Source: Gordius albopunctatus
Lineage: Eukaryota
Length of the DNA stretch: 64,000 nt
Reading direction: 5' to 3'
NCBI GenBank assembly: GCA_964276515.1
Contig: OZ193909.1
Coordinates: forward strand, 17,484,001-17,548,000
In this document: positions 1-62,930 of the stretch, one piece after another
Numbering within the stretch: the stretch's first letter is position 1
How the letters are laid out: the number at the start of each line of letters is the position of its first letter
Program-made: the position numbers and the translations under genes
The notes under the pieces: model-generated
The model's input: the letters and a program-made list of their open reading frames with translations, nothing else
Databases searched by the model: none
What the model was told of the DNA's origin: nothing

Positions 1-58
1 TAAATTTAAAAGGCTACCTTTTGGCTTAAGCATTTCAGCTGCTATTTTTCAGCGTGCT

Positions 59-2035
59 ATGGCGTCGATTTTTAGTAATTTAGACGGTATAATATTTTAT
101 TTGGACGATATATTAATAACGGGACGAACGAGAGATGAGCATGATTTGCGTCTTGTTCAGGTCTTGAATTTAATTAGTCTAAAAGATTTAAAAGTTTCAG
201 CTAAAAAATGTGTTTTTGGGACTGAACAAATTAGCTATTTAGGACATATTTTAAATAATGGTAATATTCAACCAAAGTATGACAAGATAGAAGCCATTAA
301 AAATGTTAAGTTGCCTACTAATAAAAAGGAACTATCGTCATTTATGGGTTTAATGAATTATTATAGTAAATTTATAAATAATTACACTGAATATGCTGGA
401 CCATTATACGAACTGACAAAAAAAGACGTCATATTTAAATGGAGTAAAAGTGATATTGAAAAATTTGATTTTTTGAAAAATATCTTGCTTAAAAAACCCA
501 TTTTAAGATGTTTTGATCCTAACAAACAACATATATTAAGGGTCGATGCGTCTAATATTGGTATTGGAGGCGCATTATGTCAGGTCGAGGATGGTATGGA
601 GCATCCAATTTTGTATTTTTCGCGTAAATTAAATAAAACAGAGGTCGGATATTCGGTTATAGAACGCGAGGCATTAGCGATGATTTACGGTTTACAGCGA
701 TGTCGCGAATATTTAATTGGCAAATCGTTTACTGTGATCACCGATCATAAGCCGCTTGTTGCTTTATTTAAAAAGGCGAACGCCGAACTATTAATGTCTC
801 CTAGATTACAACGTTGGCTTGTAATGTTGGGTAATTTTACATTAACCCTAAAATACGGCAAGGGAGAGGATAATCATTTGGCTGATGTACTATCGCGTTT
901 GGGCGCAGATAACATTGAGGCCGAAGATTTACCTTTGTCTTGTGATATTATAGGAGGACATGTAATCAATTCTTTGAATATTTTAGATTTAAATGATATT
1001 GTTAATGAAAGTAACAGGGACCCTGAAATATGTAAAGTAAAGAATATTTTGGCGGGCTTAGACGATAAAATTAATGTACCTATTCCTTTTAAACATATTT
1101 TGAACGAATTATATTTAGAAGATAATGTTCTTAAAAAGCATGAAAGGTTAGTGGTACCGATTAAGCTTCGTCAGGAAGTGCTAAAAATAGTACATCAGGG
1201 ACACTGTGGAATGGTTAAAATGAAAAGCTTGGCTAGACAATATGTCTGGTGGCCGCAGTTAACTAAAGATATCCAAAAATTCGTTAGGCAGTGTGAGCTT
1301 TGTAAGCTTGATGCACCGATGCCGCGTAGAAATAAAAAATCTAAGTGGCCTCGTCCTAAATTTCCATGGGAGCGTATACACATAGATTTTTTTGAATTAG
1401 ATAAAAAACGGTACATATTAATAGTAGATGCATTTTCCGGTTGGACGGAATTTAGAATTATATCAAATATATCTAGTAGAGTAACAATTACAATTTTGAG
1501 GGAATTGATAGGAAATTATGGGTTTCCAGAAATAATTGTTACGGATAATGGTAAAGCTTTTGTTAGCAACGAGTTTAAACAATTTTGTTTAAAATATAAA
1601 ATTAATCATATTTTAACTCCACCGTACCATCCAAGCTCTAATGGGCAGGTAGAAAGGTATGTAGGTATTGTTAAAAAATGGTTAAAAATAGCTAAAGTAA
1701 CGAAGGACGGAACGTGGTTATCTAAACTTTATCACAATATGTCACCACGGTATCCTAATCGTGCTCCGGTTAGCTATGAGTTTTTGAATCGTAAATTAAG
1801 GTACCCACCCGATTTGTTAAAGTTCACTGAACACCAAACATCGCCCAGTATTAGTGTGCCAAAGTTTAAGGTAAACCAAAGAGTTTGGTATCGAAACTAT
1901 TTGGGGAAACCTAAATGGGTGTTAGGTGTAATTATTGAACAATTAGGGACAAAAGTTTATAAAGTTAAGGACTCAAATGAAAATAAATTTGAAATTAGGC
2001 ACGCGGAACAATTAAAATTGTTTGATGCTATATGA
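59..2035 (+). CDS. pol: Gypsy Pol, 5'-truncated by the window edge (RT C-terminal part, RNase H, integrase)
   Basis: YLDD; RNase H DAS..GIGG and TDHKPL; integrase HQGH..CELC, IHIDFF / VTDNG / GQVER. Confidence 0.95.
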   Translation: MASIFSNLDGIIFYLDDILITGRTRDEHDLRLVQVLNLISLKDLKVSAKKCVFGTEQISYLGHILNNGNIQPKYDKIEAIKNVKLPTNKKELSSFMGLMNYYSKFINNYTEYAGPLYELTKKDVIFKWSKSDIEKFDFLKNILLKKPILRCFDPNKQHILRVDASNIGIGGALCQVEDGMEHPILYFSRKLNKTEVGYSVIEREALAMIYGLQRCREYLIGKSFTVITDHKPLVALFKKANAELLMSPRLQRWLVMLGNFTLTLKYGKGEDNHLADVLSRLGADNIEAEDLPLSCDIIGGHVINSLNILDLNDIVNESNRDPEICKVKNILAGLDDKINVPIPFKHILNELYLEDNVLKKHERLVVPIKLRQEVLKIVHQGHCGMVKMKSLARQYVWWPQLTKDIQKFVRQCELCKLDAPMPRRNKKSKWPRPKFPWERIHIDFFELDKKRYILIVDAFSGWTEFRIISNISSRVTITILRELIGNYGFPEIIVTDNGKAFVSNEFKQFCLKYKINHILTPPYHPSSNGQVERYVGIVKKWLKIAKVTKDGTWLSKLYHNMSPRYPNRAPVSYEFLNRKLRYPPDLLKFTEHQTSPSISVPKFKVNQRVWYRNYLGKPKWVLGVIIEQLGTKVYKVKDSNENKFEIRHAEQLKLFDAI

Positions 2036-2062
2036 TTATGTTCAACGTTTATTGTTATTCAG

Positions 2063-2530
2063 ATGAGAATTAATGCTGCCTGGTGCGACGTGGATTTAGA
2101 GGTGACATCCACGGCATCGAGGAACGAAAGAGTTCCAGTGTATATACTAATAAAAGTGGAGACGAACGAAAGTGCAAGATTGTTGAACTTGACGCACTCT
2201 CCGGGTCCGCCGAGACAGGTTGGGAGATCGTACGCACAAGGCTCAAGAGCCCCAAGACAACCAAGACAGGAAGAGGCTGCGGTCAGAAGTAGAGATACGA
2301 ACGAAGAGCAGCGACGAAACGTGTCTGGGAATCAACCGTTGCTGCGGCCTCCGATCTTGAAAAGAAAGAAGTGTTGGGGGTGTAAAAGCAAGCACTTGCC
2401 CCCAATGTGCTTCAAAGCAAAAACTGGTTCGGGGAAGAAAACTCAACTCAAAGATGTAGCAGAGCTGGAGTCCAGGGTGACTATGGACACCCTGACCTTG
2501 GACAGCCCCGGTCCTTCAACTTCCCAATAA
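2063..2530 (+). CDS. ORF3 of the retroelement (155 aa, basic, CX2CX3HX4C motif), copy 1
   Basis: Open ORF between the pol stop and the PPT; ATG immediately preceded by TTATTGTTATTCAG acceptor; KRKKCWGCKSKHLPPMC. Confidence 0.7.
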   Translation: MRINAAWCDVDLEVTSTASRNERVPVYILIKVETNESARLLNLTHSPGPPRQVGRSYAQGSRAPRQPRQEEAAVRSRDTNEEQRRNVSGNQPLLRPPILKRKKCWGCKSKHLPPMCFKAKTGSGKKTQLKDVAELESRVTMDTLTLDSPGPSTSQ

Positions 2531-2537
2531 TGGAAGG

Positions 2538-3509
2538 TGTGGTATACGTGTATACCACGATACCAGATGTTATAGTATACAGCGTTTTATTTAATGTCCG
2601 CGGTATAAGCGTGTTATTTAATGTTCGCGGTATACTTTGATCTTAATTAAAATTATTTTATTAATGTTAATGTAAAAGGGTTAACGAACGGTTCCGCAAT
2701 CCTTGTAATTAAAAAAAAGGAATTGGTCAAAAGAAGACACTTTTACCGCAGGTTAACCCAGACGCGGAAGTGGCTAATTCTCTTTGACGCTCTCTTTTTT
2801 TAATTACTTTTACTTTTTATTTTTAACTCAGCCACATCTGTTACTAATCTTTGCAGCCCCGTCTGAAGATTTGCTAATTCAATCAAGCCGACCACCCTGG
2901 GGAGATCCAACAGCTATAAAAGCGAAAATCTCACTTCACTAAAAAAGTCCTCGTAAATTTTTCCCCAGTCCTTCGAAGTTTTCCCCTAACTTTGTATTGT
3001 CCCCAAAAACCTTATAATTGTTTCCAATCCCTACGCCTTCGCTCTTTTACTATAATATTATTGAATTGTGTANNNNNNNNNNNNNNNNNNNNNNNNNNNN
3101 NNNNNNNNNNNNNNNNNNNNNNNNNNNNNNNNNNNNNNNNNNNNNNNNNNNNNNNNNNNNNNNNNNNNNNNNNNNNNNNNNNNNNNNNNNNNNNNNNNNN
3201 NNNNNNNNNNNNNNNNNNNNNNNNNNNNNNNNNNNNNNNNNNNNNNNNNNNNNNNNNNNNNNNNNNNNNNNNTCACTTCACTAAAAAAGTCCTCGTAAAT
3301 TTTTCCCCAGTCCTTCGAAGTTTTCCCCTAACTTTGTATTGTCCCCAAAAACCTTATAATTGTTTCCAATCCCTACGCCTTCGCTCTTTTACTATAATAT
3401 TATTGAATTGTGTAATTTAATCTTCGCGAATATTAATCTGTCTTTATCGTTGTAAATAAATTTGCATCTTTCTTTTATACTTAATTTTCTTTCGCCTTAG
3501 ACCGCCGTC
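2538..3509 (+). repeat. 3' LTR of plus-strand copy (contains the N gap and a 142-bp duplicated overlap; lacks the terminal CA)
   Basis: Starts TGTGGTATACG after purine tract AATAATGGAAGG (2526-2537); matches 8586-9217 reverse complement; TATAAAA at 2915, AATAAA at 3455. Confidence 0.9.
3073..3272. other. Assembly gap (200 N); flanks 2931-3072 and 3273-3414 are the same 142 bp
   Basis: Direct reading of both flanks. Confidence 0.98.
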
Positions 3510-3827
3510 TGCAAAGATTAGTAACAGATGTGGCTGAGTTAAAAATAAAAAGTAAAAGTAATTAAAAAAAGAGAGCGTCAAAGAGAATTAGCCACTTCCG
3601 CGTCTGGGTTAACCTGCGGTAAAAGTGTCTTCTTTTGACCAATTCCTTTTTTTTAATTACAAGGATTGCGGAACCGTTCGTTAACCCTTTTACATTAACA
3701 TTAATAAAATAATTTTAATTAAGATCAAAGTATACCGCGAACATTAAATAACACGCTTATACCGCGGACATTAAATAAAACGCTGTATACTATAACATCT
3801 GGTATCGTGGTATACACGTATACCACA
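3509..3827 (-). repeat. Truncated 3' LTR (first ~319 bp only)
   Basis: Matches 8899-9217 apart from a substitution at 3611 versus 9001. Confidence 0.92.
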
Positions 3828-3834
3828 CCTTCCA

Positions 3835-4302
3835 TTATTGGGAAGTTGAAGGACCGGGGCTGTCCAAGGTCAGGGTGTCCATAGTCACCCTGGACTCCAG
3901 CTCTGCTACATCTTTGAGTTGAGTTTTCTTCCCCGAACCAGTTTTTGCTTTGAAGCACATTGGGGGCAAGTGCTTGCTTTTACACCCCCAACACTTCTTT
4001 CTTTTCAAGATCGGAGGCCGCAGCAACGGTTGATTCCCAGACACGTTTCGTCGCTGCTCTTCGTTCGTATCTCTACTTCTGACCGCAGCCTCTTCCTGTC
4101 TTGGTTGTCTTGGGGCTCTTGAGCCTTGTGCGTACGATCTCCCAACCTGTCTCGGCGGACCCGGAGAGTGCGTCAAGTTCAACAATCTTGCACTTTCGTT
4201 CGTCTCCACTTTTATTAGTATATACACTGGAACTCTTTCGTTCCTCGATGCCGTGGATGTCACCTCTAAATCCACGTCGCACCAGGCAGCATTAATTCTC
4301 AT
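3835..4302 (-). CDS. ORF3 of the retroelement (155 aa), copy 2
   Basis: Identical translation to 2063-2530; acceptor AG at 4304-4303 abuts the ATG. Confidence 0.7.
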   Translation of the reverse strand: MRINAAWCDVDLEVTSTASRNERVPVYILIKVETNESARLLNLTHSPGPPRQVGRSYAQGSRAPRQPRQEEAAVRSRDTNEEQRRNVSGNQPLLRPPILKRKKCWGCKSKHLPPMCFKAKTGSGKKTQLKDVAELESRVTMDTLTLDSPGPSTSQ

Positions 4303-4329
4303 CTGAATAACAATAAACGTTGAACATAA

Positions 4330-7300
4330 TCATATAGCATCAAACAATTTTAATTGTTCCGCGTGCCTAATTTCAAATTTATTTTCATTTGAGTCCTTAA
4401 CTTTATAAACTTTTGTCCCTAATTGTTCAATAATTACACCTAACACCCATTTAGGTTTCCCCAAATAGTTTCGATACCAAACTCTTTGGTTTACCTTAAA
4501 CTTTGGCACACTAATACTGGGCGATGTTTGGTGTTCAGTGAACTTTAACAAATCGGGTGGGTACCTTAATTTACGATTCAAAAACTCATAGCTAACCGGA
4601 GCACGATTAGGATACCGTGGTGACATATTGTGATAAAGTTTAGATAACCACGTTCCGTCCTTCGTTACTTTAGCTATTTTTAACCATTTTTTAACAATAC
4701 CTACATACCTTTCTACCTGCCCATTAGAGCTTGGATGGTACGGTGGAGTTAAAATATGATTAATTTTATATTTTAAACAAAATTGTTTAAACTCGTTGCT
4801 AACAAAAGCTTTACCATTATCCGTAACAATTATTTCTGGAAACCCATAATTTCCTATCAATTCCCTCAAAATTGTAATTGTTACTCTACTAGATATATTT
4901 GATATAATTCTAAATTCCGTCCAACCGGAAAATGCATCTACTATTAATATGTACCGTTTTTTATCTAATTCAAAAAAATCTATGTGTATACGCTCCCATG
5001 GAAATTTAGGACGAGGCCACTTAGATTTTTTATTTCTACGCGGCATCGGTGCATCAAGCTTACAAAGCTCACACTGCCTAACGAATTTTTGGATATCTTT
5101 AGTTAACTGCGGCCACCAGACATATTGTCTAGCCAAGCTTTTCATTTTAACCATTCCACAGTGTCCCTGATGTACTATTTTTAGCACTTCCTGACGAAGC
5201 TTAATCGGTACCACTAACCTTTCATGCTTTTTAAGAACATTATCTTCTAAATATAATTCGTTCAAAATATGTTTAAAAGGAATAGGTACATTAATTTTAT
5301 CGTCTAAGCCCGCCAAAATATTCTTTACTTTACATATTTCAGGGTCCCTGTTACTTTCATTAACAATATCATTTAAATCTAAAATATTCAAAGAATTGAT
5401 TACATGTCCTCCTATAATATCACAAGACAAAGGTAAATCTTCGGCCTCAATGTTATCTGCGCCCAAACGCGATAGTACATCAGCCAAATGATTATCCTCT
5501 CCCTTGCCGTATTTTAGGGTTAATGTAAAATTACCCAACATTACAAGCCAACGTTGTAATCTAGGAGACATTAATAGTTCGGCGTTCGCCTTTTTAAATA
5601 AAGCAACAAGCGGCTTATGATCGGTGATCACAGTAAACGATTTGCCAATTAAATATTCGCGACATCGCTGTAAACCGTAAATCATCGCTAATGCCTCGCG
5701 TTCTATAACCGAATATCCGACCTCTGTTTTATTTAATTTACGCGAAAAATACAAAATTGGATGCTCCATACCATCCTCGACCTGACATAATGCGCCTCCA
5801 ATACCAATATTAGACGCATCGACCCTTAATATATGTTGTTTGTTAGGATCAAAACATCTTAAAATGGGTTTTTTAAGCAAGATATTTTTCAAAAAATCAA
5901 ATTTTTCAATATCACTTTTACTCCATTTAAATATGACGTCTTTTTTTGTCAGTTCGTATAATGGTCCAGCATATTCAGTGTAATTATTTATAAATTTACT
6001 ATAATAATTCATTAAACCCATAAATGACGATAGTTCCTTTTTATTAGTAGGCAACTTAACATTTTTAATGGCTTCTATCTTGTCATACTTTGGTTGAATA
6101 TTACCATTATTTAAAATATGTCCTAAATAGCTAATTTGTTCAGTCCCAAAAACACATTTTTTAGCTGAAACTTTTAAATCTTTTAGACTAATTAAATTCA
6201 AGACCTGAACAAGACGCAAATCATGCTCATCTCTCGTTCGTCCCGTTATTAATATATCGTCCAAATAAAATATTATACCGTCTAAATTACTAAAAATCGA
6301 CGCCATAGCACGCTGAAAAATAGCAGCTGAAATGCTTAAGCCAAAAGGTAGCCTTTTAAATTTAAAAAGTCCGGCCTCGGTATTAATTGTTAGGAGCCGC
6401 GATGACTTTTCATCTACCTGTAACTGCAAATAAGCATTGGCAAGGTCAATTTTTGAGAAAAATTTAGCGCCTATTAATTTAGCAAAAATAATTTCTAACC
6501 TAGGTAAGGGGTATTTTACCTCAATAATACATTTGTTTACCGTGATTCTATAATCAGCACAAACCCTAATTGTACCGTCAGTCTTCCTGACAGGTACTAA
6601 AGGTGTGGCCCATTCCGAATAGCCAATAGGTTCAATTACATTATCCTTTAACCATGTTTTAATTACCTCGTCGACCTTATTTTTTAAAATAAAAGGTACG
6701 CGTCTGGCAGAACAAAATTTAGGAATGGCATTTAAATCAACTCTAACCGAAAATATTTCGTCATTTAAACATCCTAAACCAGGTTCAAAAATTTTAGAGA
6801 ATTGGTTTTTTATATTATCAATCTTGGTGTGCCATGTTGTGACCAAATCAGACTTTGCCTCCAAATTAGCTAATTTATGGCATGTGGGTACCAAAGGTAC
6901 CCCGCACTTTAAATCGGCCTGAAAAATGGGTTGTTCTTGGCAGACGGGACCTCCCGAGTTATCTGATTTATGAGCTATGCGCTCTAACTCAGAATGAAAA
7001 ACGGGTGTGAAATCCCTGCACTGTGAACTACCTGACAACGCCTTCGACATCACCATGGACTTAACATCAACTTTCAAAATTTTGCGAGCATTACTTTTAT
7101 TACATAATCCCCACCATTGAATTTTGGGCCCAATTATCCTAATCCAGGACCAGCCCATTATGTTATCTACGTTCTCTTTAATAATAAATAAATCCAATTC
7201 GACTACAAATTCTGCCACTTTAACCAAAACATTAATTTTACCTAAAACAGTTATTAAAGTATTATCAAGTTGCTTAGCAATTATATTAGCAGTTTCAAAA

Positions 7301-7458
7301 TTTCGATCCGGCCAAAATTTTTTAAATGTTTTAAAACTAATAATGGATATTGCGGCGCCAGTATCTAATATAAATGTTAGCTTAAAATTATCGACATTTA
7401 CTATCACTAAAGGTGAAGCTGACGAATTTAAAACTTTATTTATATCTACCTTGCGCAT
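4330..7458 (-). CDS. pol: Gypsy Pol polyprotein (aspartic protease, RT, RNase H, integrase), intact, 1042 aa from first Met
   Basis: LDTGAAIS protease; WATPLVPV, IDLANAY, LPFGL, YLDD RT motifs; RNase H; HHCC and DDE integrase. Confidence 0.97.
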   Translation of the reverse strand: MRKVDINKVLNSSASPLVIVNVDNFKLTFILDTGAAISIISFKTFKKFWPDRNFETANIIAKQLDNTLITVLGKINVLVKVAEFVVELDLFIIKENVDNIMGWSWIRIIGPKIQWWGLCNKSNARKILKVDVKSMVMSKALSGSSQCRDFTPVFHSELERIAHKSDNSGGPVCQEQPIFQADLKCGVPLVPTCHKLANLEAKSDLVTTWHTKIDNIKNQFSKIFEPGLGCLNDEIFSVRVDLNAIPKFCSARRVPFILKNKVDEVIKTWLKDNVIEPIGYSEWATPLVPVRKTDGTIRVCADYRITVNKCIIEVKYPLPRLEIIFAKLIGAKFFSKIDLANAYLQLQVDEKSSRLLTINTEAGLFKFKRLPFGLSISAAIFQRAMASIFSNLDGIIFYLDDILITGRTRDEHDLRLVQVLNLISLKDLKVSAKKCVFGTEQISYLGHILNNGNIQPKYDKIEAIKNVKLPTNKKELSSFMGLMNYYSKFINNYTEYAGPLYELTKKDVIFKWSKSDIEKFDFLKNILLKKPILRCFDPNKQHILRVDASNIGIGGALCQVEDGMEHPILYFSRKLNKTEVGYSVIEREALAMIYGLQRCREYLIGKSFTVITDHKPLVALFKKANAELLMSPRLQRWLVMLGNFTLTLKYGKGEDNHLADVLSRLGADNIEAEDLPLSCDIIGGHVINSLNILDLNDIVNESNRDPEICKVKNILAGLDDKINVPIPFKHILNELYLEDNVLKKHERLVVPIKLRQEVLKIVHQGHCGMVKMKSLARQYVWWPQLTKDIQKFVRQCELCKLDAPMPRRNKKSKWPRPKFPWERIHIDFFELDKKRYILIVDAFSGWTEFRIISNISSRVTITILRELIGNYGFPEIIVTDNGKAFVSNEFKQFCLKYKINHILTPPYHPSSNGQVERYVGIVKKWLKIAKVTKDGTWLSKLYHNMSPRYPNRAPVSYEFLNRKLRYPPDLLKFTEHQTSPSISVPKFKVNQRVWYRNYLGKPKWVLGVIIEQLGTKVYKVKDSNENKFEIRHAEQLKLFDAI

Positions 7459-7488
7459 ATCAATGTAATTTGAATTATCTTGCGCTAG

Positions 7489-13091: not shown

Positions 13092-14387
13092 TTATTTGCG
13101 CGATTTAGATAAAAATTCATTGATTATATCTTGAGTGTCTGGAATTAAATCTCTATGAATATTCAACAAGGTCAAACCTATAAGCCTATATAAAATTAAG
13201 AGTTTGTAATAAAATGTATTTACCTCTCTTGCCCAGTTCTATTCCTCAAGTAAGTTTTAAGTCTTCTCAGCGTAGAAAAACTTCTTTCATTAGAACACGT
13301 TGTTACTGGGAGTGTTGCTAAAATCTGGTATAACACTCTTATATTTGGATATAGAAGCAGCTTGGAATTATAATCCCACAATGCTTTTAGTGCATAAAAA
13401 GGCAGGACTTCAGGGTTACAATCTTTAAAAGATTGATACCAGAGTTTAATCTCAGCCTCATAAATTTCTTGATTTCCATTCAAATCATCCCCATAAAAAT
13501 TGGCTAAATTCAAAAAGTTCGCCAGTTTAACTTCAGATAGCTTTACAGGTGGTTGTAGTAGTAAAGAATGAAATCCCATGAGAATTTGTTTATTCTCAAG
13601 AAACCTTGTGTCCATTTCTACCAAAAAAGTGTCTAAGAATGCATTATACAGAGTTATTCTATAATAAGCCTCCGGGGTTTGTTGGGCATTTCCTCTGGGA
13701 ATCGAAATCTCAAAGTCATATTGTTTTCCCATCAATGTGACATCTTTAAAAATCCTGGAAAACTCTACCTGAGAATTATTTCTAATTAATTTAATAGCTT
13801 CCACAACGTTTTCGGCCGCATTTATTGCCTGTGATAAGTCCAGGTTAACGCTTTGCAAATGAATACTAAGATTTAAAGTATAAGCAAAAATTTGCTTTAG
13901 TGTGTGTAATGATAACCAAAAATGGCCAGTTTTAAGTGCTGATACCAATAGCATGGCACCCGAAGAGGAATCATTGTCTGCCCATTCACTAATCTGCTCA
14001 AGGGTTGTGATGATTGAATCTCTTAATTCAAAAAAGCGGTTTATTGCTTGATGCTTTTGAACCCATCTTGTTTCACAGAGAGTTTTTAATTTCAAATTTT
14101 TGGAATCTGAAGACTTTACAATTGAATCAAACTTTATTCAAATTGATAGAGGAATTCATATGAAATGCATACGTTTTATAACCACAAGGAAAATTTAGGA
14201 AAAATATATTAACGCCTAAAAATACTTAATGGTTGTTGAAAATAAGAGCTCTCCATAGTTAATTAAATAGCACTCATTTTATAATATTTACTATATAATG
14301 CTATATTAGAAAATAAAAAATATTTTTTCGAAATCCGCGGGGGGGGGGGTTTGAACCCTAAAACCCCCCCCCTTGCGTACGCCACTG
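13092..14387 (-). pseudogene. Internally deleted hAT transposon (ZMYM1/PRKRIR-like transposase C-terminal half)
   Basis: LCETRW and LPVTTCSNERSFSTLRRLKTYLR; a 38-nt intron (13186-13223) leads to RLIGLTLLNIHRD...SRK*; CAGTGGCGTA terminus at 14387. Confidence 0.85.
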
Positions 14388-15579: not shown

Positions 15580-16170
15580 CGGCCACGAACCCGAATTGCT
15601 ACGCCGATATTTCCACCTCGTTTTTCAGCCTTGTTACTAATATCCTTTCCATAAGCTTAAAGGAGTGGCAAGTTAGCTTGATACCTCTGTAATTGCCGCA
15701 TTCCTGAGGGTCTCCTTTGCCTTTAAATAAGAGTATAACCGTGCTTGCTCTCCATTTATTAGGGATTCTCTCTTCTACCAATATCTTGTTAAGGAATTTC
15801 GTCATGGTGGTGACTCCTTCTTCACGACATCCGAGCAATGCTTCCATAGGTATTCCATCTGGGCCATTTGCTTTTCCTTTTTGCATCTTGTTAATTTGTA
15901 TCCTAACTTCATCTTCCTGCAAGAGTTCGACCATACTTATATTTGGCACAATTTCGGGAAGGGAATCCTTGTCATTTGCAATCTTAAAATATTCTTTCCA
16001 CCTTTCCATCACTTCTTTCGGCTTGAATAAGGTTTGACCCTTCTCGCTTTTGACTATTTTAAGAACTCCGACATCGCGACTTTTCTTCTCCCTTATCTTG
16101 GCCAATTTGTACATAAGCCTATCGCCTCCTTTATGATCCAGTTTGTTTGCCATCTCGGTGTACAATGACC
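15580..16170 (-). mobile_element. RTE-clade LINE reverse transcriptase fragment
   Basis: KANGPDGIPME, LFKGKGDPQECGNYRGIKL. Confidence 0.9.
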
Positions 16171-16339
16171 GCGGCCAGGAAAATTCGAGAATGTGTTCAA
16201 ATATTTTTTAAGTTTGTTTATGCAAGCAATACGGCTCCCTCCTTTATTAGTTACAGTGACATAATTACTTTTTAAAAAGCGCGACCAAGCATCTCACCCC
16301 TCACAGTCAAAGTAAGTAGAATCTCTTAATTATTTCCGA

Positions 16340-22936: not shown

Positions 22937-24839
22937 TTATTTTTTCTTGAAAAAATCCGTCATTGAAGCTTGCTTTGTTGCTGGTTTGGAGCCATGCCCT
23001 TTTTTATTAGCAGGTATTGATTTCTGTTGTTCTTTTTTAACTTTCTCTTCTTTAATTAGTTTTTGAATCTTGGCCTTTATTGGTGATTTTGAATCTTTAG
23101 CAAACGTTTGAGGAGATTGAGTGTTGCTTTGGCTCGTTGATTCCCAAACTTTCTCAGTAACTAATTAAACACAAGCTAGTTAAGTTGAATTAAAATCATG
23201 TTCACATGTCAACAATTTTACACCATTCCTCATTATGTATTCTCTTTAAAAATTAATAAAAAATTTTAATTTTGTAAAAACTCCTAAAAAACTATAAAGT
23301 TTAGTGAAAATCAATTGTTATAATACCTTAAAAGCTTATTTAGTAAATATTCTACATAAAGTCTAAATCCAATTTTTTAACATTTTGAGAAATTTATTTT
23401 TAATCAGCAATAAAATTTGGTATTACAAGGAAAACAATAATTATTTACCATAAATAAAATGAAAAAAAAATTAGTTCAATACTTTTATCTAATAGATGAT
23501 GGGCACATGAGCCACCTCTTCCAGCCCCCCCTCTAAATCCAAAAGCTTTTTGAAATTTATTAAAATCATGGCTAAATTTTCAGAAAATTTCATTTTGCCT
23601 TTCCCTAAATCATTATTGCCCCCCTCTAATTCAGATGCTGGCTACGACCATGGATGGACATGAATAAATGTCATAAAATTTTAAACCTAGGAACCCTTCT
23701 TCATTGAGATATGTTTTATTAATTAATTTTCTATGATTAGGTGGCATGGGTTCTTCTTCATTATCAAGTGTACTATAGGCATCCCCTTTTCCATCATCAT
23801 CATCATTAGGTTTGTCATTTTGAATTTCTGTTTTGACATCTATGTTAAAGAAATTAGCATAAATTTTACAATTGTTTTACAAAATTTAAATTTACCTATA
23901 TCTGAGCTTTTGTGCTCTAATTTATCTAAACTAGTACCAGATAATTTAGCTTCCAACTTTATCTTAGAACCACCTTTTTTTCTCAGTGGAGAACTTATTG
24001 GACTACTATCTATTATAGGTTCTTTTGCATCAAGAGGCTTAATTGGTAATTTATCAGGTGACCTTTTTAATTGTGTGACTAAAAAAATTATTTATAATTC
24101 CATAAATAACTTACTAATATTTTGAGATTCTTTTTTAGGAAGAACTTCCATTTCATTTGTAGTATTTAAGCTTATATTTGAAACTGGTTTTATTGAAGGA
24201 TCTCTTATTAAATTAGATCTAAAATCAATTAATTGGGACAAATAATATTGGCATACTTAATATAAGTATCATCAATTAATTTTGATTGTTCATAATCAAC
24301 CAAGTAAATTAGGTTAAAATCCTATAAAATTGCATTTTAAATGATTATATTATCAATAAGGGGAATTAAGTCAAACGAGTACTTTAAGACTTAATTTCTA
24401 ATTGTATACTTTTATTTCTGAGTTTGATAAAGCATATATATTTTTTGATAGAACATTGTATTCTTTCTCAAAATCACCCAATTGAGAAGAGTTTAAAAGA
24501 TTTATAGAAAAATTCTATAAAATAGGTAAAATGTTTCAATTGACTACCTCAGGATTTTTTTTATTTGATGCATAGACACGATATGCTACATATATAGGCA
24601 TATTCTCAAATGCAGTTACTTCACAAAATTCCTTCAAGAATCTAAGCACTTAAAAGATTAAATTAAAAATTACTCATTTATTTGAAAATTATTGAGATGA
24701 TAATTCCTTTTAAGCCATTTAAAGGTGACCTACAAAAAAGCTAATTAAATGGAAAAGATTATTTAACTAGTTTTTGTTCCTCTTGTAATAAATTATAGAC
24801 TGTCTCACGAGTCAATTTATGAGATTTCTCGAGAATCAT
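22937..24839 (-). CDS. POLD3: DNA polymerase delta subunit 3 (p66/Cdc27), ~9 exons
   Basis: N-terminal EEQKLVTFKWL, KTYLNEEGFLVTEKVWES, C-terminal PIP box KQASMTDFF; all introns GT-AG and frame-consistent. Confidence 0.85.
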
Positions 24840-25435
24840 TTTAGCTTAAATTTAAATAGACAGCTGAGTCTATAGGTAACCTTAATGTTACAATGCAATC
24901 AACCACTTTATATTCAAATTCAAGCATAGACATAAGTCTATGTATTCAAATATCCAACATCTTTTATATTCGTCTGTTTAAGTATATTAGGACATGTATA
25001 ACATTGCCTTTTTTAAAAAAATATTAAAGGTTTATTACTACTATTGGTTGAGGACATACACTTGGTAATAGAGCACTAATTAAAATTTATTTCAATAAAA
25101 TTCGAGCCACTAGTGGACGTTATAAAGGATAGTTATAGACTAATAAAACCATAGACTTCCGAACAACTGATATTCTCAGCAAGCATAAAAAGCGCTATAT
25201 TGACGGAAATTGTAACCGAACAATACAACTCAACATAAGTTATATTAGAAATTAGTAAATAAATTGCAGGTTAATGATATAATTTAGAAGATAATAACAA
25301 CCCCTTTCAGGAGTGCCTGCAATTAAATTAAAAGAATACTCTAATTAGCGCCATCTATAGGCAATTTTAATTAGAGACTAATTTGAACTATGTATATCCC
25401 TATCTTTTTTAGTATGTGACTCGAAAATGATAACA

Positions 25436-25478
25436 GACATATAACGTTTTCGCTCTTATTAGAGCTCATCAGTATGCC
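25436..25478 (-). ncRNA. Minimal type I hammerhead ribozyme
   Basis: GGCAUA-CUGAUGA-GCUCU(AAUA)AGAGC-GAAA-ACG-UUA-UAUGUC: conserved core, stem II, palindromic AACGUU stem III, stem I GGCAUA/UAUGUC. Confidence 0.85.
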
Positions 25479-25641
25479 ATAGTTAATTCTCTAGTCACAC
25501 ACTAAGCGAGATAGGTATCAAAATAATTATTACTACCATAATTATGGGGGTTATTTCATAGCCAACAGAAGAATGAATTAAATCTAATTTGTGGATTATA
25601 TATACCTATCTCGCTTAGTGTGTGACTAGAGAATTAACTAT

Positions 25642-25684
25642 GGCATACTGATGAGCTCTAATAAGAGCGAAAAGGTTATATGTC
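25642..25684 (+). ncRNA. Minimal type I hammerhead ribozyme (stem III variant AAGGUU)
   Basis: GGCATA CTGATGA GCTCT AATA AGAGC GAAA AGG TTA TATGTC. Confidence 0.75.
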
Positions 25685-26118
25685 TGTTATAATTTTCGAG
25701 TCACATACTAAAAAAGATAGGATATACATAGTTCAAATTAGTCTCTAATTAAAATTGCCTATAGATGGCGCTAATTAGAGTATTCTTTTAATTTAATTGC
25801 GGGCACTCCTGAAAGGGGTTGTTACCAAATCCATTATTTTCCTAATTAACAAACCAATTTCCTTCTATAAATGCACATTATGTGGACGTCCATGATATTT
25901 TATCTTTTTTTGACAAACTCTTTTTCAAGAGGCAGTTAAAGGGAGTTGGCAATGAGATTTCACAATATCACTTTAGAATAACAAAACAAAATAATAAATT
26001 TATTTCGTAATTATAAATATAATAAAAACAATATGTTCATTTCTTGAAAAAATAAAATAAGGTTATAAAAAAAGTTGTCATAATCTTCATCTTTTTATAA
26101 AGTAGTTGTAATAATGCT

Positions 26119-29100
26119 TCACAATTTTTCGATAAGTATTGAGGAAGCTGCACCCCCTCCATTGCAAATGGCAGCAATTCCCTTTTGACCTTTTCGAAGA
26201 ACGTGTGCCAAATGGCCTGTAATTCGAGCTCCTGACATACTGTAAATAAAAAAACCTTTTAATAAGCATTATCTAATTAGTTATCATTTTTATATATTTG
26301 TACTACAAAAATTTAAAGTGTAACTTAGAATAAAATGATTATTTATTATGCCGTCTTGCCAAATAGATGGGTCAACAAATAATGTTCTTAAAAAATCGAC
26401 CGAAAAATTGTTGCGAATTCTGGTAGAGTTTTTTACGGTGAAGACAAATATATTTTTAGTTTTTCCCCTATACGTGAAGTTCTTGAAATGTTTGCTGTCA
26501 AAGTTGCTAAAAACAGCGTTTTGGTGTTTAGATAGGGAATTTTTTTTAATGAATTCCTCTAAATCAAATTTATTAAAGTGAAATTTTACAGATTAATTTG
26601 CAAGTTATTGACGTTTGTATAAAGCCAAAATCGCTGATTTTAGCAATTTTGACAGCAATTTCAAAAACTTGAGGTATAGGAAAAAAATTAAAAATATATT
26701 TGTGCTCACCGCGAAAAACTCTACCTCTGCAAACAGTTTGACGGTTAATTTTTCTTGTAGCAGCGTGTTAGTTAAATTGAATAAAGCATTTTTATAAGTA
26801 GGAAAGAATAAAATGAGGGCTTTATACAACTTTAAGCCCTTAAGAAATCTCTAAGATCTACAAAAGTTACAAATACTAGATTCTAAAGAAAAAACCGCAC
26901 ATTATTATAGGGTCATGATAATATCTAAAACCTTGAAGTTTGGTTTGTTCAATAAATAAAAAATACTTTTCAAATTTTAATGGTATTTATAACGGGAAAA
27001 ATAGCAAATAATCGCGAATCTATTTTATACAATAAATAAATCTTCTATTTCAACATGGATGATAATAAAAATGGTTTTATAAAATTACCCTATGGGGTGT
27101 CCCATACTAACAGCTCCTCCGTGAATATTCACTTTATCGACATCTAGCTTTAATTTTCGAATATTACCTAAAGCTACGACCGAAAAAGCTTCGTTAATCT
27201 CCCACAGGTCTATGTCACTTATTTTGAGATTGGCTAGAGAAAGGAGCTTAATAATTGCACAGAAAATGTTTACCATAAAAATATACGGCTAAATGAGATA
27301 TAGAATTTTTGGTATGATAGTTAAATTGTCCAAAATTAAAGTTTTTCATCAAAAAAAGATTGATGTAATATATAAAATGATAATCTTATAAAAAACTAAA
27401 AAATTTATCATGATTGTCAGCGCTGAGGCTAGCAAAATTTTGAGGGGGCTACGATAAAAAGCAATCAAAACTTTATATACTTCATTTAAAACTGCGAGGG
27501 GTTCAATTTCAACTAGCACCATTTAACTTTGTTATAAAATACGCGATTTACATTTCATAATTTAACAATTATTTGTCAAATAAACATATTAGTTGATGTA
27601 AAAAATTGACGAAAAATTTGCAATTTGTATGGTAAAGCAGCAAAAATAAAGTGACGCGTTTATTAAGCTGCAGCTTTGTTATTTGCATTCTTTGCTTCGC
27701 TTCAAAATGGCGCATAAAAACACACAAGCCAAAATCGTAGTATACACTATTATTTTTATCAAAAGTATTCAAATATAAATTAAACTCATATATTCCTGGT
27801 GCCCCCAATTCTCCTAATTTTCACTTTTTGAATACAATAACAAATGTGTAGAAAGAACCAGAAGGATTAGACGGTGTTACGCATCTAAACAAAATAAAAA
27901 CTGCATTATTTTAATCAGCCCCGTTAAAAAATAACATTAACTACTAACACATTAAACCTACCATAACAAATAGACCAAAGTTTTTTAGTCTAAGCTTCGG
28001 TCTATTTTTGAGAAGAAAAACAGAACAAAATATCGTTGGTTGGTTGATGTTTGGTCGATCAAGCAAAACCCAGCCGGTTTCACAAAACTACTTAATAAGA
28101 AAAGGCAAAGTGGCCCGGAAGTGGAAACGATGATTTTTGATTTTATATAGTCTTACCTTTGGAATAGCCACTGAAGGTGCGATGGTAAAATCAACGGGGT
28201 CCAGAGCGGCGTCCGCGAAAGCTATTACCCGGGCTAACGGTTTTAAATCAAATTTTTCGGCGGTTTGAGCATCCGTTATGAGTAGAGCTGCCGCCCCATC
28301 ATTGATTTTACTGGCGTTAGCTGCTGTTATAGTTCCTGCAAAATACTTTGTTATAAGCCGAGACTAAAACAGCTGACATGAGCGTAGCCAGGGGCAGTCT
28401 CTAAATCCAAAAATTTGTTGAAATTCATTAAAAGAATGGCCAAAATTTCGAAGATTTTTCAAATGCTGGCTACGCCCATATAAATATTAATATATCAAAA
28501 GTTATTGATTTAATTGAATAATTAAAAGTTAGGGCCCAATACGTAAAGATAATCCCTAAATGTTCTCATTCTTCTTTCCTCCACACGAGCACAGTGGAAA
28601 AACGGACTCAAAATGGTATGGCTGTCTAAGTTGCTTAATTAATTTTGATGCAAGAATTCGTTCACCTATCTATTGTATAATTAGTCCATGGTCATATGCC
28701 TCTGCGTAGTCAGGGGGAGGCAAGATTCATAATCAATAACTTATGATTTAAATTTCTTAGAACTATCATTTTGCTCTTGTCTAGGCAATATCCACCCACC
28801 ACCCACCCAACCTACGGCCACAATTCTACGCGTATTATGGTTAATAGATTACTGTAATTATTCTCTGATTCCATTATAGAAATTATAACGGCTAATTTAT
28901 TAAACTAATTATTTTACGGTTTAAATCCGATCGAAATTTATCTTGTGTTCGAGATCAATGCACATTTGCATTATAAAAAGTATTTATTAAGCGATTTACA
29001 AGACACACTTTTTTAAAGTAATCCCAATAAAAGTTTCTCGAAAAGGTTATTTTTTGGTTACATTAAGGATTAATAAGCTGTTGCACAAATATTGCTCCGA

Positions 29101-32849: not shown

Positions 32850-33478
32850 TAGTGTTGTTAAATTGCTAACTTTAGCAATGCTAACTATGTGCTATGCTCG
32901 AGCACAAACAGTAGCTGGGTAATATGCTAGTTTAGCACAAAGAGTGCTAACTGTTCGGTGCAATAGTTTTAACAGTAGCACGTAAAAATGCTCGAGAGGT
33001 TAGTCGAAGCAGCCAAATCTGTTAAAAAATTTAGCAGGAGCTCGAGCAGGTAGTAGATTGAATTGCTTTTGTCAAACTTTTTTAGTTACTTACAATAATA
33101 TTTGCTCATATTATATATCATAAATAAATTAAGAACTTTGCCCCCCCCCCATCTCCCCTCTGGTGAGAAAGAGGATAAAAAATGGAGGGGGGATAAGTTC
33201 TTAATTTATTTATGATATATAATATGAGCAAATATTGTAAGTTATTAAATTTTGACAAATAGCAATTCAATCTACTATCTGCTCGAATTTACTGCTCGAG
33301 CTCCTGCTAAATGTTTTAACAGATTTGGCTGCTTCGACTAACCTCTCGAGCATTTTTACGTGCTACTGTTAAAACTATTTCACCGAACAGTTAGCACTCT
33401 TTGTGCTAAACTAGCATATTACCCAGCTACTGTTCGTGCTCACGTTTTTAGTTGAAGCTGCTTAGCAATTTAACAACT
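32850..33478. mobile_element. Fold-back MITE (nearly whole-length palindrome); fragment also at ~62505-62650
   Basis: GTTGTTAAATTGCTAA / TTAGCAATTTAACAAC ends; internal arms ~32895-33135 and ~33197-33440. Confidence 0.85.
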
Positions 33479-33479
33479 A

Positions 33480-33935
33480 TAGCCCCAAAGACGCCCAAGA
33501 GCTTAGTAAGTGCAATCTAAGGTTGAGCCTCTTCTCACGCCAAATGGCGCATAAGACCACGATCGAGGTCGCACAGATGTTAAAAAGAAGAGAAGTACAC
33601 ATCGCCTGCCTACAAGAGACGAGGTGGAACGGAACGAAAGCTCGGGAATTAGGAGAAGGATACAAGCTTTTCTACAGTGGGTCACCAAATCGTAGAAACG
33701 GGGTCGGTATCGTTCTAAGCGAATCGTTCAAGGACAAGGGGGTGGAAGTAAAGCGTTGTTCCGACAGGCTAATTTGGGTGAATATTGCAGATCAAGGGGG
33801 CCTCCTAACCGTTATGTGCGTGTATAACCCCTAAATTGGATATCTGGAATCAGAGAAAGACATATTCTTTGTTTCATTGGAAAAGGAAATACAAGGAATA
33901 GGACAGGAAGAAAGGCTAATTATTGGGGCAGGTGA
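33480..33935 (+). mobile_element. RTE LINE AP-endonuclease fragment
   Basis: IACLQETRW, GYKLFYSG, RNGVGIVL, LIIGAGD. Confidence 0.85.
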
Positions 33936-46000: not shown

Positions 46001-49000
46001 ATGGTTAATGTAACTAATGTAATGCCACATGTGGCGGTTCTATTTTCTACACTTTAGGACCATGGGGGAGGGAATTAGTGAATAAAAAGAGACCTTACAC
46101 TAGGCAAGCGCGTCTGTAAAATGGCGCGCCGCATAACATCACTAAGTATTAGTAAACATCGCAAAAACAGAATGTACTCTAGTGTACTCCTATTTACAGA
46201 CATAGTTGAAAGAATTTTGATAAGGCGAAGTGTTTGCATTAACACATAAATTCATAAAGAGAAACAAAAATTAAAATATAGCCCTGTAAATTAATCAATG
46301 GTCTATATGATTATATAAATAACATTAAAAATAAATATAAAAAATGGCATGGTAATATAGCCTCTTAAGACGCAAAAAGGCATCTTTTGAACCTTTATCA
46401 TCATTTATCTCGAAATCTGGACGTCTTGGTGAAAAACTAAAAATGATTAGCATATCTCTATCAAAAATTTTGGTCCGATTGTTGCTGTGTTATTCGATTG
46501 CCAAAATTTGTTATCTTTTTAGACTTTATGATATTATTTCTTTATCGGCGAATTTAAGAACATAGCAACTGTAGCGGATATAAAAGAAGAATACCTATAT
46601 GGTAATTTAGCCCAAACTGCCGATTCGATTAAAATAGACATCAACCCTAAGAAAGAGGATAATTTTTCGATTTACGAGAATACCAACCTAGCCGGCGATG
46701 AAAAGGATATGATTAACAAGTTTCCCCTTACGGCATCTTTTATTTAATTTAATTATCTCTCCTGTTAGGTGTATAGATGAGATATTGGTTAAATTGATTA
46801 AGACTTCCATCAATGCAAACGATAACTTTTGTGAGCAGCTCTCCCCATCCCTTCTTTCCCACCTACGGAACTTGGTTCGACAAAGGTTGTGGTTCGAGAA
46901 AATAACTGACGAACAGCACATGCTTAAATGGGAATCGACGATCGTTGAAATGGCATTGAGGGTTATTGATTTTATTGAGTTACGTCCTACCGGAAATCCT
47001 GAATTTGATAACATATGTTCTTGTATCAAAATCAAAAAAATTTCCCCATCCTATCTTTATTTTTTACATGATGCCGAGCTAATGGAGAAAAAGGAAGAAA
47101 GGGCAATCTTTCTTTTTCCAGGCATAGTGTTTACGCAAAATTTGGTTCACAAGGATATGACAATGTTTTCGGCTAAGCCCAAATTAATGTCCATTGCAAG
47201 CCAACATAATTTATTGTTAGAATTACCTCAACCTAGTATATTAATGCTACGCGGTCCTATAGAATACCAGAGGGTCGAACACAAGCTTGCATCCCTCGAA
47301 CCCATAATAATGCAGGAGCGTGAATATTTAAAAAATGTGGTGGCCAAAATAACAGCTCTCAAGCCTGACATCGTTATAGTGCTCAAACAAGTTTGTCTCT
47401 TGGCTCGCGAACTTATGCTAGAAGCTGGGATTGCTTTGATACACAATGTTAAGAAGGAACAACTTTTCACACAACTCTCCATTTTAGTTGAAGCGGAAGT
47501 CGTACGATCTATGGAAGGTGGTCACTTGTTTTTTAAACCGAAAATGGGGCTGTGTAGAAGTCTAAAAATTGTGAAGGTTTACTCATTGGGAAGCAAAAGT
47601 AAAACGCTGGTATTTGTAGAGGCATATTCTGCAAGCGACCAATATATCTCAAAACCCGAAAGACTACCCTATTGTACACTTTTATTATCTACTTCGCGTA
47701 ACCTAAGAATTGCCGGAATTATTAAACGAATACTCCGTTTTACCATATATGCCGCTTATCACCTTAAGCTCGATGCAAGTTTCGGCGTTAGCTGCCAAGT
47801 CAAAAACGAAACCATAACAAAAGAATTATCCTACTCCGAATGGACTAAAGCTTTTAGAACATTAATGCAACTCAAAAATTTCTTATTTTATCCTGAAAAG
47901 GTCGCTGATGCTACTCTGATCGAAAATGATGTTAAACATTTGAGTCCTTCTGGGGAAACTCCAGACGCCTGCGTAAATAAAGTAGCTCTTTACCAATTGC
48001 TCCTTCTAAATATCTCGCTATCTGTAACCCCCGACGTTCGTTTTAAAATTCCTTATATGGATTGCTTAAAAGAACTAACGTCAAACCCTTTTCGAGGTGC
48101 GGATGATAATGCAAAGATGAAACATTACGCTTATTTGTCAAACATGATACCGTCTCGCCTGTATTTTTCTAAATTTTGGGATAACACTCCTGGGGAGATT
48201 TTGTTGCCTCCTAACTGTGATTCAAATGAGAAAAATGATGTTCCTATAACGAATATCTCTGAAACTAAAGATGGTTTATTATTCCGACACTTTGTTGAAT
48301 CATCCGATGATTTAGGAGATTATTTAGCGCGTTTTAGGTACGAAGATGAATACATGGTAACGCCCAACAAGGAAACGGAAGTTATTGATGAAAATCATAA
48401 CCTTTTACAAAATTCGCCACCTGATTGCTTCGATATAACGTCTTTACAAAGGATACACTTTTTGTTCTACAGTTTCTCTACCAACTCTACCAATTACCCT
48501 TCATACTGTATATCTCCTTGGATCGTTAAAATGAATTTTTACGGTTTGCACGATATAAGCCTTCACACCTTTTTGTTTCGATTTTGTTTTGATCCGAATT
48601 ATCAATGCCCGAGCAGCGTTTGTCAAGCTTCTTGCTTGACCCACGTACGTCGGTTCGTCCACGATAATCGGAGTATTAACATCACTTTACTAAATTATGC
48701 GAGCGATGGGGTGAAAAACAAACAATTTTTTTCAGCAGACGTGATCATCTATTGGACTGGTTGTAAAAAATGCGGGGTTCCTCTTACCGGTCCCAGTTGT
48801 ATGTCACGGTATGCTAAGCAACTTTCTTTCGGGAAGTATTTAGAATCCTTGGCTTATGGACGGACCAACGATGGAAACACTTGCAAGACGTCTCAGTGCT
48901 CTGATGCTTCCATCGAAGCGAGAGCTACGAACCTGAACCATTTTTTTGCTTACCGTTCCGTAGTGGCCTGTTTTACATGTCAGAATGTTAAAATAGGTAA

Positions 49001-62308: not shown

Positions 62309-62930
62309 TAGAGGCATGCAAAATCGAATTTTTTCAGCCCAGCCCGAAACCTTTTATTTCATTTCCCGAGCCCGAAATTATTTTTTCAGGCCCGACCCGA
62401 GCTCGGCCGATTTTTTTTGAAATGTAAATTTACAAAAAAAAATTATTTAGAATCTATAGTTGTTAGATTGCTAAGTAGCTTCAACTAAAAACGCGAGCAC
62501 GAAGTAGCACGTAAAAATGCTCGAGAGGTTAGTCGAAGCAGCCAAATCTGTTAAAGCATTTAGCAGGAGCTCGAGCAGTAAATTCGAGCAGATAGTAGAT
62601 TGAATTGCTATTGTTAAAATTTAGTAACTTACAATATTGCCTCATGGTATATTATAAAGTTATTATATTATAGTTTTATAACAAATTAAGCAGGTTGAGC
62701 ATAAAATGATGGATTGCACGATAATAAGATGAGATTGTATAATTGATTTTTTATCTTACAGCACATTTCATCTAACATAAAAGTATTTTTTCTCTCCTAT
62801 ATATAAATCCCTGCAAAATGAAATTTCTCTAAAATTTTGTAAACGATAGGTAGATTTTGTTTCGGGAAAATTTTGATTTTTGGCTAGAGCTTGGCCCAGC
62901 CGCGTTTCGGACAGCCCGCGCAGGGCTATA
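62309..62930. mobile_element. hAT-type MITE related to 12015-12688
   Basis: GCCCGA repeats; imperfect TIRs; TSD ATTATAGC at 62301-62308 and 62931-62938. Confidence 0.7.

What the first reader, a model, noticed from the sequence alone, without database searches (positions are those of the whole stretch)
25295..25824. Palindrome carrying two outward-facing minimal hammerhead ribozymes between ACAT1 and POLD3
Seen: each arm has the CUGAUGA core, a 5-bp stem II, GAAA, a 2-bp stem III and stem I GGCAUA/UAUGUC with a predicted UUA cleavage triplet. The minus-strand copy has the self-complementary AACGUU; the plus copy has AAGGUU. Known: minimal type I hammerheads with palindromic stem III occur in Penelope-like element pLTRs and retrozymes and are thought to cleave as dimers. 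Inference: an inverted pLTR remnant. The intact copy lies on the strand of ACAT1 readthrough heading into POLD3, and the palindrome could also yield dsRNA.
Basis: partly seen in the sequence, partly recalled or inferred. Interest (0 to 1): 0.7.

Follow-up and report, generated by a model that had tools for sequence, protein, structure and literature searches.

The report
Head-to-head hammerhead repeat, horsehair worm
This mirror-image stretch is two back-to-back pieces of a very abundant, protein-free repeat carrying a conserved motif for a predicted self-cutting RNA; it was likely pasted in by a Penelope-type jumping-gene enzyme, and here the mirror arm is predicted to block the ribozyme, so it probably does not regulate the neighbouring genes.

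Summary
The palindrome and both hammerhead motifs are real: the arms differ at 4 of 224 columns, and the motif scores 0 hits in 500 shuffles. The host is likely a horsehair worm. The palindrome is not a self-contained element. It holds two head-to-head copies, cut at different points, of a high-copy unit of at least ~350 nt. Other loci of the family invert at other points. Across copies in two organisms no catalytic-core position varies at 6% or more, and AACGUU is the family form; the plus copy is a private mutant. The ribozyme has canonical type I geometry (6-bp helix I, 4-bp helix II, 6-nt loop), which is the retrozyme type, not the minimal pLTR type. It sits at the tip of a ~55-bp hairpin. 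I found no TSD and no linked RT/GIY-YIG ORF. Read-through from ACAT1 would bury the ribozyme (about 68 kcal/mol penalty), and a poly(A) signal precedes the repeat. Best reading: a retrozyme-like non-autonomous retroelement inserted by Penelope-type machinery (0.5). Rivals: stub of a true pLTR (0.28), or cargo of a DNA transposon (0.14). Opposite-strand hammerhead pairs are already in print, so interest is modest.

The parts
25295..25527 (-). Left arm: copy of the repeat unit reading leftwards, cut short at its 5' end
25436..25478 (-). Type I hammerhead, family form (AACGUU); predicted cut after UUA, between 25442 and 25441
   Evidence: family form
25243..25294 (-). One-sided 3' continuation of the left copy (at least 52 nt), absent from the right copy
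   Evidence: loose ends behind 25802 continue into this sequence; three X3 pieces run from the arm to 25242-25243
25134..25242 (.). Further repeat sequence with a sharp end at 25134/5 and a [C/T]ATAGAC-type terminus; probably the end of a separate DNA-transposon derivative, link to the hammerhead unit not settled
   Evidence: 49-57 contigs with diverse flanks before 25135 in each of X1, X2, X4, and two different continuations behind 25171/25172
25528..25601 (+). 'Spacer': the 5' part of the right copy, itself repeated elsewhere
   Evidence: X3 record 24 covers 25532-25681 in one piece; loose ends before 25577/25578
25602..25824 (+). Right arm: copy of the unit reading rightwards, ending without the extension
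25642..25684 (+). Type I hammerhead with a private change at 25674 (AAGGUU) that breaks the self-complementary helix III; predicted cut after 25678
25584..25741 (+). Long imperfect hairpin (25584-25636 with 25690-25741, 78% complementary) that extends helix I and puts the ribozyme at its tip
   Evidence: (z -7.4, 0 of 100 shuffles)
25999..26268 (-). Last thiolase (ACAT1-like) exon with stop at 26119 and AATAAA at 25999-26004
22937..24839 (-). POLD3-like gene; candidate start codon at 24839, C-terminal exon matching Pfam CDC27
   Evidence: the N-terminal assignment rests on recalled similarity, Pfam gave no hit on those short pieces

Best explanation
The locus is two head-to-head, unequally cut copies of an abundant protein-free repeat whose hammerhead core is conserved across copies, likely a retrozyme-like non-autonomous retroelement that was likely copied in by a Penelope-type reverse transcriptase/endonuclease acting in trans. 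Shown: the layout, the many copies, the core conservation, the canonical geometry and the other inversion points at other loci. Predicted: transcripts of single-orientation copies fold into a long hairpin with the ribozyme at its tip and cut after UUA, probably as dimers through AACGUU. Inferred: the helper enzyme copies the RNA at a genomic cut and lays down a second, inverted, 5'-shortened copy, building the palindrome anew at each insertion. At this site the product is predicted to be inert, because the mirror arm pairs over the ribozyme.
For: Many copies: 1,679, 4,095 and 2,689 contigs lie on the stretch in X1, X2 and X4, nearly all on the repeat, while the flanks sit at single-contig depth. 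The two arms are 98% alike, whereas listed pieces from other loci differ at about 8-29 places in 120-190 nt, so both arms came from one template. Conservation: all 16 variant rows at 6% or more were listed; within 25632-25688 only 25659 (loop 2) and 25674 (the window's own mutation; C in 93-99% of depth) vary. Geometry matches the 'canonical' definition of PMC4209133, the class that PMC7229834 places in non-LTR retrozymes, with PLEs proposed as helpers. The unit is 30% GC, strongly self-paired and has no long ORF. Inversion points vary: 10 of the 15 joints shown (of 105) cross from the antisense arm to the sense copy. Four are clean (25448>25597, 25460>25621, 25488>25734, 25494>25596; each one contig in X1 and in X2 at about single-copy depth, not explained by the internal hairpin). 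One search adds 3 opposite-strand joints, one in organism B. Head-to-head inverted, 5'-truncated copies with a one-sided tail are the described PLE footprint (PMC8557442, PMC3846280).
Against: No helper ORF was seen: no GIY-YIG or PLE-type RT among 91 of 98 window ORFs scanned, and no genome was available. No TSD. The extension is at least 52 nt and possibly 160 nt, not 30-40. Retrozymes are defined as tandem arrays and this locus is not one; only two head-to-tail joints were seen, and terminal redundancy was not significant (869 of 2000 shuffles scored as well). The four clean joints rest on sides of only 24-30 nt, X1 and X2 are one study and may be the window's own source, and the polarity of the opposite-strand joints is not given. 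A RepeatModeler survey of another horsehair worm reported no Penelope or SINE elements (10.1101/2023.06.26.546503). Support for the long hairpin is mixed: two G-U to A-U changes keep pairs (25620, 25631), but 25618 G>C has no listed partner change. Cleavage is untested.
Confidence: 0.5

Rival explanations
1. The unit is the pLTR of an autonomous Penelope-like element, and this locus is its shortest insertion product: inverted pLTR plus pLTR plus tail.
For: Head-to-head layout, one-sided extension and variable junctions. Opposite-strand hammerhead pairs 100-700 bp apart are reported for PLE motifs (PMC4209133). Some insect, rotifer and shrimp PLEs have a small palindromic helix III, and Selaginella and some Chlamys PLEs have canonical hammerheads. 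Cover falls towards the 5' side, as 5' truncation would give.
Against: Three described traits of animal PLE min-HHRs are missing: helix II of 7-8 bp, helix I of 4-5 bp, and the extra base before helix II. No open frame longer than 17 codons enters the unit from the 5' side. The unit of at least ~350 nt exceeds the ~190-220 bp pLTRs quoted for Adineta. No PLE ORF in the window.
Confidence: 0.28
2. The hammerhead unit is internal cargo of a non-autonomous DNA transposon with [C/T]ATAGAC termini, and the palindrome arose by a local fold-back rearrangement that lost the second terminus.
For: A sharp repeat end at 25134/5 with two different inner continuations behaves like a terminal inverted repeat. 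It lies only ~110 nt from the last position shown to be joined to the hammerhead unit. An element with similar ends and an 8-bp TSD is at 51943-52226. The genome is rich in palindromic repeats.
Against: No listed contig bridges 25218-25242. Three X3 pieces stop at 25242-25243, one with 91 unaligned letters beyond. The second terminus is not in the window. A DNA transposon needs no RNA step, so it does not explain the conserved core. Summed depth on the ribozyme exceeds that on the terminus several-fold, though depth is no copy number.
Confidence: 0.14
3. The insertion has been co-opted to cut or silence ACAT1 read-through RNA or to tune POLD3.
For: The family-form ribozyme is on the strand of both genes, 295 nt past the thiolase stop and 300-400 nt before the POLD3-like start. 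A transcript across it would form a ~224-bp duplex.
Against: The ribozyme fold costs ~68 kcal/mol in such a transcript. AATAAA lies upstream of the repeat. In organism B a 2,296-nt contig matching 25866-26254 runs on unbroken for 1,746 nt on the repeat side (record 32), which suggests but does not prove that the insertion is absent there.
Confidence: 0.03

Closest known systems
Metazoan non-LTR retrozymes (Cervera and de la Pena 2020, PMC7229834; newt satellite 2 / axolotl HHR_Amex1, Schistosoma SMalpha)
   Same: Canonical type I hammerhead with a weak palindromic helix III; protein-free, low-GC, strongly self-paired unit in the 170-400 nt range; very many copies.
   Different: Here the copies are head to head with varying junctions instead of head-to-tail arrays. 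Monomer ends and circular RNA are not shown. No TSD.
Insertions of endonuclease-bearing Penelope-like elements with inverted pLTR and tail (PMC3846280, PMC8557442)
   Same: Head-to-head inverted copy, unequal 5' ends, extension on one side only, hammerhead within the repeated end.
   Different: No linked ORF, no TSD, extension of 52 nt or more, ribozyme of canonical rather than min-HHR geometry.
Dual min-HHRs on opposite strands 100-700 bp apart in Schistosoma mansoni (PMC4209133)
   Same: Two hammerheads about 180 bp apart on opposite strands, seen as truncated-element products.
   Different: Those motifs have helix II of 7-8 bp, helix I of 4-5 bp and an extra base before helix II.
Rfam Hammerhead_HH9 (RF02275)
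   Same: Core, GCUC/GAGC helix II and 6-nt loop nearly identical; UAY before helix I and U after it agree by eye with the printed consensus.
   Different: Scores 26.6 and 22.7 bits against a gathering score of 52; helix III is 2 bp with a 2-nt loop.

Membership tests
Type I hammerhead ribozyme | Core CUGANGA / GAAA / NUH with three helices, helix I open | tested here: met
   triplet UUA
Type I hammerhead ribozyme | Core conserved across copies | tested here: met
   no variant at 6% or more in the core, helix I or the 4-bp helix II in 4 runs (depth-weighted, copies at least 80% alike)
Type I hammerhead ribozyme | Reaches an Rfam gathering score | tested here: not met
   best 26.6 of 52 bits
Type I hammerhead ribozyme | Self-cleavage | not testable with these tools
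   needs in vitro transcription
Canonical metazoan type I HHR (PMC4209133) | Helix I 6 bp, helix II 4 bp, helix III 1-2 bp with a 2-4 nt palindromic loop | tested here: met
   met by the minus copy and the family, palindrome broken in the plus copy
Canonical metazoan type I HHR (PMC4209133) | Conserved loop 1 / loop 2 contact bases | tested here: inconclusive
   UAU before and U after helix I and loop YAAUAA resemble the HH9 consensus by eye and, apart from the first loop-2 base, do not vary; cmscan did not align loop 1
Animal PLE min-HHR (PMC4209133) | Helix II 7-8 bp, helix I 4-5 bp with ill-defined loop 1 | tested here: not met
Animal PLE min-HHR (PMC4209133) | Extra unpaired base between positions 9 and 10.1 | tested here: not met
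   sequence runs CUGAUGA directly into GCUC
Animal PLE min-HHR (PMC4209133) | G10.1-C11.1 pair and palindromic 15.2-16.2 / loop 3 | tested here: met
   shared with canonical motifs
Non-LTR retrozyme | Short, low-GC, non-coding, self-paired unit with a canonical type I HHR | tested here: met
   (30% GC, 65-71% paired as a circle); true ends not fixed
Non-LTR retrozyme | Head-to-tail tandem arrays | tested here: inconclusive
   not at this locus; one go-back joint in organism A and one in organism B; no terminal redundancy
Non-LTR retrozyme | Expressed as circular RNA | not testable with these tools
   needs RNA data or northern blot
Penelope-like element insertion | Inverted, 5'-truncated copy joined head to head | tested here: met
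Penelope-like element insertion | 30-40 bp tail on one side | tested here: inconclusive
   one-sided extension present but at least 52 nt
Penelope-like element insertion | Target-site duplication | tested here: not met
   the papers also report copies without TSD
Penelope-like element insertion | Repeat is the pLTR of an RT + GIY-YIG ORF | tested here: inconclusive
   none in the window; genome not held
MITE / foldback DNA transposon | Palindrome arms are fixed termini with a TSD and a fixed centre | tested here: not met
   the family runs past one arm end, junctions differ between loci, no TSD

The most novel reading that the evidence does not exclude
A retrozyme-type element with a canonical hammerhead has spread through horsehair-worm genomes as dispersed copies bearing Penelope-type head-to-head insertion scars. 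These scars would identify PLE enzymes as the long-proposed but unproven helpers of animal retrozymes, in a phylum reported to lack Penelope and SINE elements.
Probability: 0.3. Interest if true: 0.6.

Novelty: new variant of a known kind. Interest (0 to 1): 0.36.

Why it matters
PMC7229834 and PMC7761336 state that the enzyme which mobilises animal retrozymes is unknown and name PLEs as the likely candidate on circumstantial grounds. A canonical-hammerhead, protein-free family with many independently built head-to-head junctions would allow that idea, and the PLE insertion mechanism, to be tested by counting junctions in one assembly. It may also be the first hammerhead family noted in Nematomorpha: searches for 'hammerhead ribozyme'+'horsehair' and 'Nematomorpha'+'ribozyme' found 0 papers in the held library. 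The single locus itself is an ordinary, probably inert insertion.

Tried and rejected
No whole genome is held, so copies could be seen only through contigs of public runs. No RNA holder was listed, which is no evidence on expression. A family-type pattern found 0 matches in metagenome contigs and 0 in viral contigs. A second pattern found 2 metagenome loci that share only the core and helix II and have other flanks and a different helix III; rejected as relatives. Rfam miRNA matches (mir-559 and others) reflect the palindrome only and lie far below their gathering scores. No tRNA and no match to my simple Pol III A/B box patterns, so no tRNA-SINE evidence. An apparent likeness between the 3' extension and the 5' spacer (circular permutation) was rejected: 869 of 2000 shuffles and 269 of 836 background windows scored as well. 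A 2-bp TA duplication around 25297-25822 was rejected because the family runs past that end. Two crossing joints (25412>25598, 25429>25523) were set aside as possible artefacts of the internal hairpin, and the 12 'skip' joints shown were not counted because most are short matches around an unaligned middle. Lunse et al. [quoted passage not shown] No PLE protein was at hand as a query, so whether horsehair worms encode PLE enzymes is left open. Look-ups of earlier findings by sequence and by place gave nothing.

Full report
Observation. The palindrome is real. Arms 25295-25518 and 25602-25824 differ at 4 of 224 columns. Each arm holds a type I hammerhead motif. These are the only 2 matches to my descriptor in the window, and 500 shuffles gave none. 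Rfam finds HH9 on both strands at 26.6 and 22.7 bits, below the gathering score of 52. The upstream gene on the minus strand is a thiolase. The downstream gene ends in a stretch matching the C-terminus of Pfam CDC27/POLD3 at E 0.0011. A kinase in the window has its best hit in Gordionus (460 bits against 345 for the next of 120 listed), so the host is likely a horsehair worm.

What the repeat is. No genome is held, so I laid contigs of public runs on the locus. Thousands of contigs lie on 25135-25824 in organisms A and B while the flanks stay at single-contig depth. The tool's depth is not a copy number; I read it as many copies, likely hundreds or more. The 'spacer' is the 5' part of the right copy, and other copies continue past 25824 into the sequence that here lies left of 25295, at least to 25243. 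So the locus is one copy reading right from about 25528 and one reading left from about 25527, joined head to head, with an extension on the left only. The unit is at least ~350 nt, 30% GC and without a long ORF. It folds into a long hairpin with the ribozyme at the tip (z -7.4). Further left, 25134-25171 behaves like the terminal inverted repeat of another element; no listed contig bridges 25218-25242, so I leave its link open.

The ribozyme. One search listed all 16 variant rows at 6% or more over 25575-25760 in four runs. None falls in the core, helix I, the 4-bp helix II or loop 1. Position 25674 is C in 93-99% of depth, so AACGUU is the family form and the plus copy is a private mutant. 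The self-duplex is -3.5 kcal/mol for AACGUU and +2.6 for AAGGUU. Position 25659 varies U/C without a partner change, so helix II is 4 bp with a 6-nt loop. That is the 'canonical' metazoan geometry of PMC4209133, not its PLE min-HHR (I read parts 1-2 of 4, Results and Discussion). PMC7229834 (parts 1-4 of 6, main text; supplement unreadable) places canonical motifs in non-LTR retrozymes and proposes PLEs as helpers. Limits: shares are depth-weighted, unphased, and exclude copies under 80% alike. The long hairpin has two pair-keeping changes and one that appears to break a pair.

How the palindrome arose. The arms are far closer to each other than to other copies, so they came from one template. 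Of 15 joints shown (of 105), 10 pass from the antisense arm to the sense copy at different places. Five have an unknown middle, and two (one of those five and one other) may reflect the internal hairpin. That leaves four clean junctions, each one contig in X1 and in X2, with short sides of 24-30 nt. One search shows three opposite-strand joints, one in organism B, of unstated polarity. Variable junctions argue against a fixed MITE and fit the inverted, 5'-truncated copy with one-sided tail described for PLEs (PMC8557442, passages; PMC3846280, passages). Opposite-strand hammerhead pairs 100-700 bp apart are already reported. Against: no TSD, an extension longer than 30-40 bp, and no PLE ORF among 91 of 98 window ORFs of 72 aa or more that were scanned (the other 7 mirror scanned ones in a duplicated block). 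The Gordionus genome preprint reports no Penelope or SINE repeats (passages); a second Nematomorpha preprint does not mention ribozymes (passages).

Effect on neighbours. Because the copies face outward, any transcript crossing the locus makes the antisense arm first. Forcing the hammerhead fold costs 67.7 (minus) and 70.3 (plus) kcal/mol, against 3.6-4.0 for a transcript starting in the spacer. The two motifs lie on opposite strands and cannot pair in cis. An AATAAA lies 175 nt before the repeat on the ACAT1 strand. In organism B the contig matching the ACAT1 3' region runs on unbroken for 1,746 nt on the repeat side, which suggests an empty site. A long duplex RNA is possible if the locus is transcribed; I could not test that.

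Mechanism and odds. Best reading (0.5): a retrozyme-like, non-autonomous element, inserted in trans by PLE-type enzymes, leaving head-to-head stubs; this copy is predicted inert. Shown: layout, abundance, core conservation, geometry, variable junctions. Predicted: fold, cut site, dimer need, blockage. Inferred: RNA intermediate and helper identity. Rivals: stub of a true pLTR (0.28), cargo of a DNA transposon (0.14), host co-option (0.03).

Novelty. Each ingredient is in print. The combination of a canonical hammerhead with PLE-type head-to-head scars I did not find in the papers returned, of which I read passages of PMC7761336, PMC8969392, PMC6155905, PMC6765202 and PMC8490949; Lunse et al. 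2017 I saw only through a review. No held paper joins Nematomorpha or horsehair worms with ribozymes. Earlier AI notes on other genomes reach like conclusions; they are leads, not support. Verdict: new variant of a known kind, interest 0.36.

Noticed in passing
window 51943-52226: Small element with [C/T]ATAGAC...GTCTAT[A/G] ends and an exact 8-bp target duplication; a partial relative ends at 53689.
   Followed up: partly
window 25134-25171: High-copy terminus with two different inner continuations in four runs, behaving like a terminal inverted repeat.
   Followed up: partly
window 32900-33441 and 26422-26725: Two other palindromic repeats without a hammerhead match; the first has a partial copy near 62454-62652.
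   Followed up: no
window 1-2856 and 3509-6364: Perfect inverted duplication around a 200-N gap, through an LTR-retrotransposon pol frame (4330-7488; RT, RNase H, integrase); may be an assembly artefact.
   Followed up: no
window 13220-14137, 15599-16207, 33466-33831: hAT transposase fragment, a non-LTR RT-like fragment (RTE likeness recalled, no Pfam hit) and an endonuclease/exonuclease fragment.
   Followed up: no
window 46713-51287: PIKfyve-like kinase with 1,524 codons in one open frame; best hit Gordionus at 50% identity.
   Followed up: partly
L001 ~2960-3025 and L002 ~1060-1145 (minus strands): Two hammerhead cores in metagenome contigs, unrelated to this family in their flanks.
   Followed up: no
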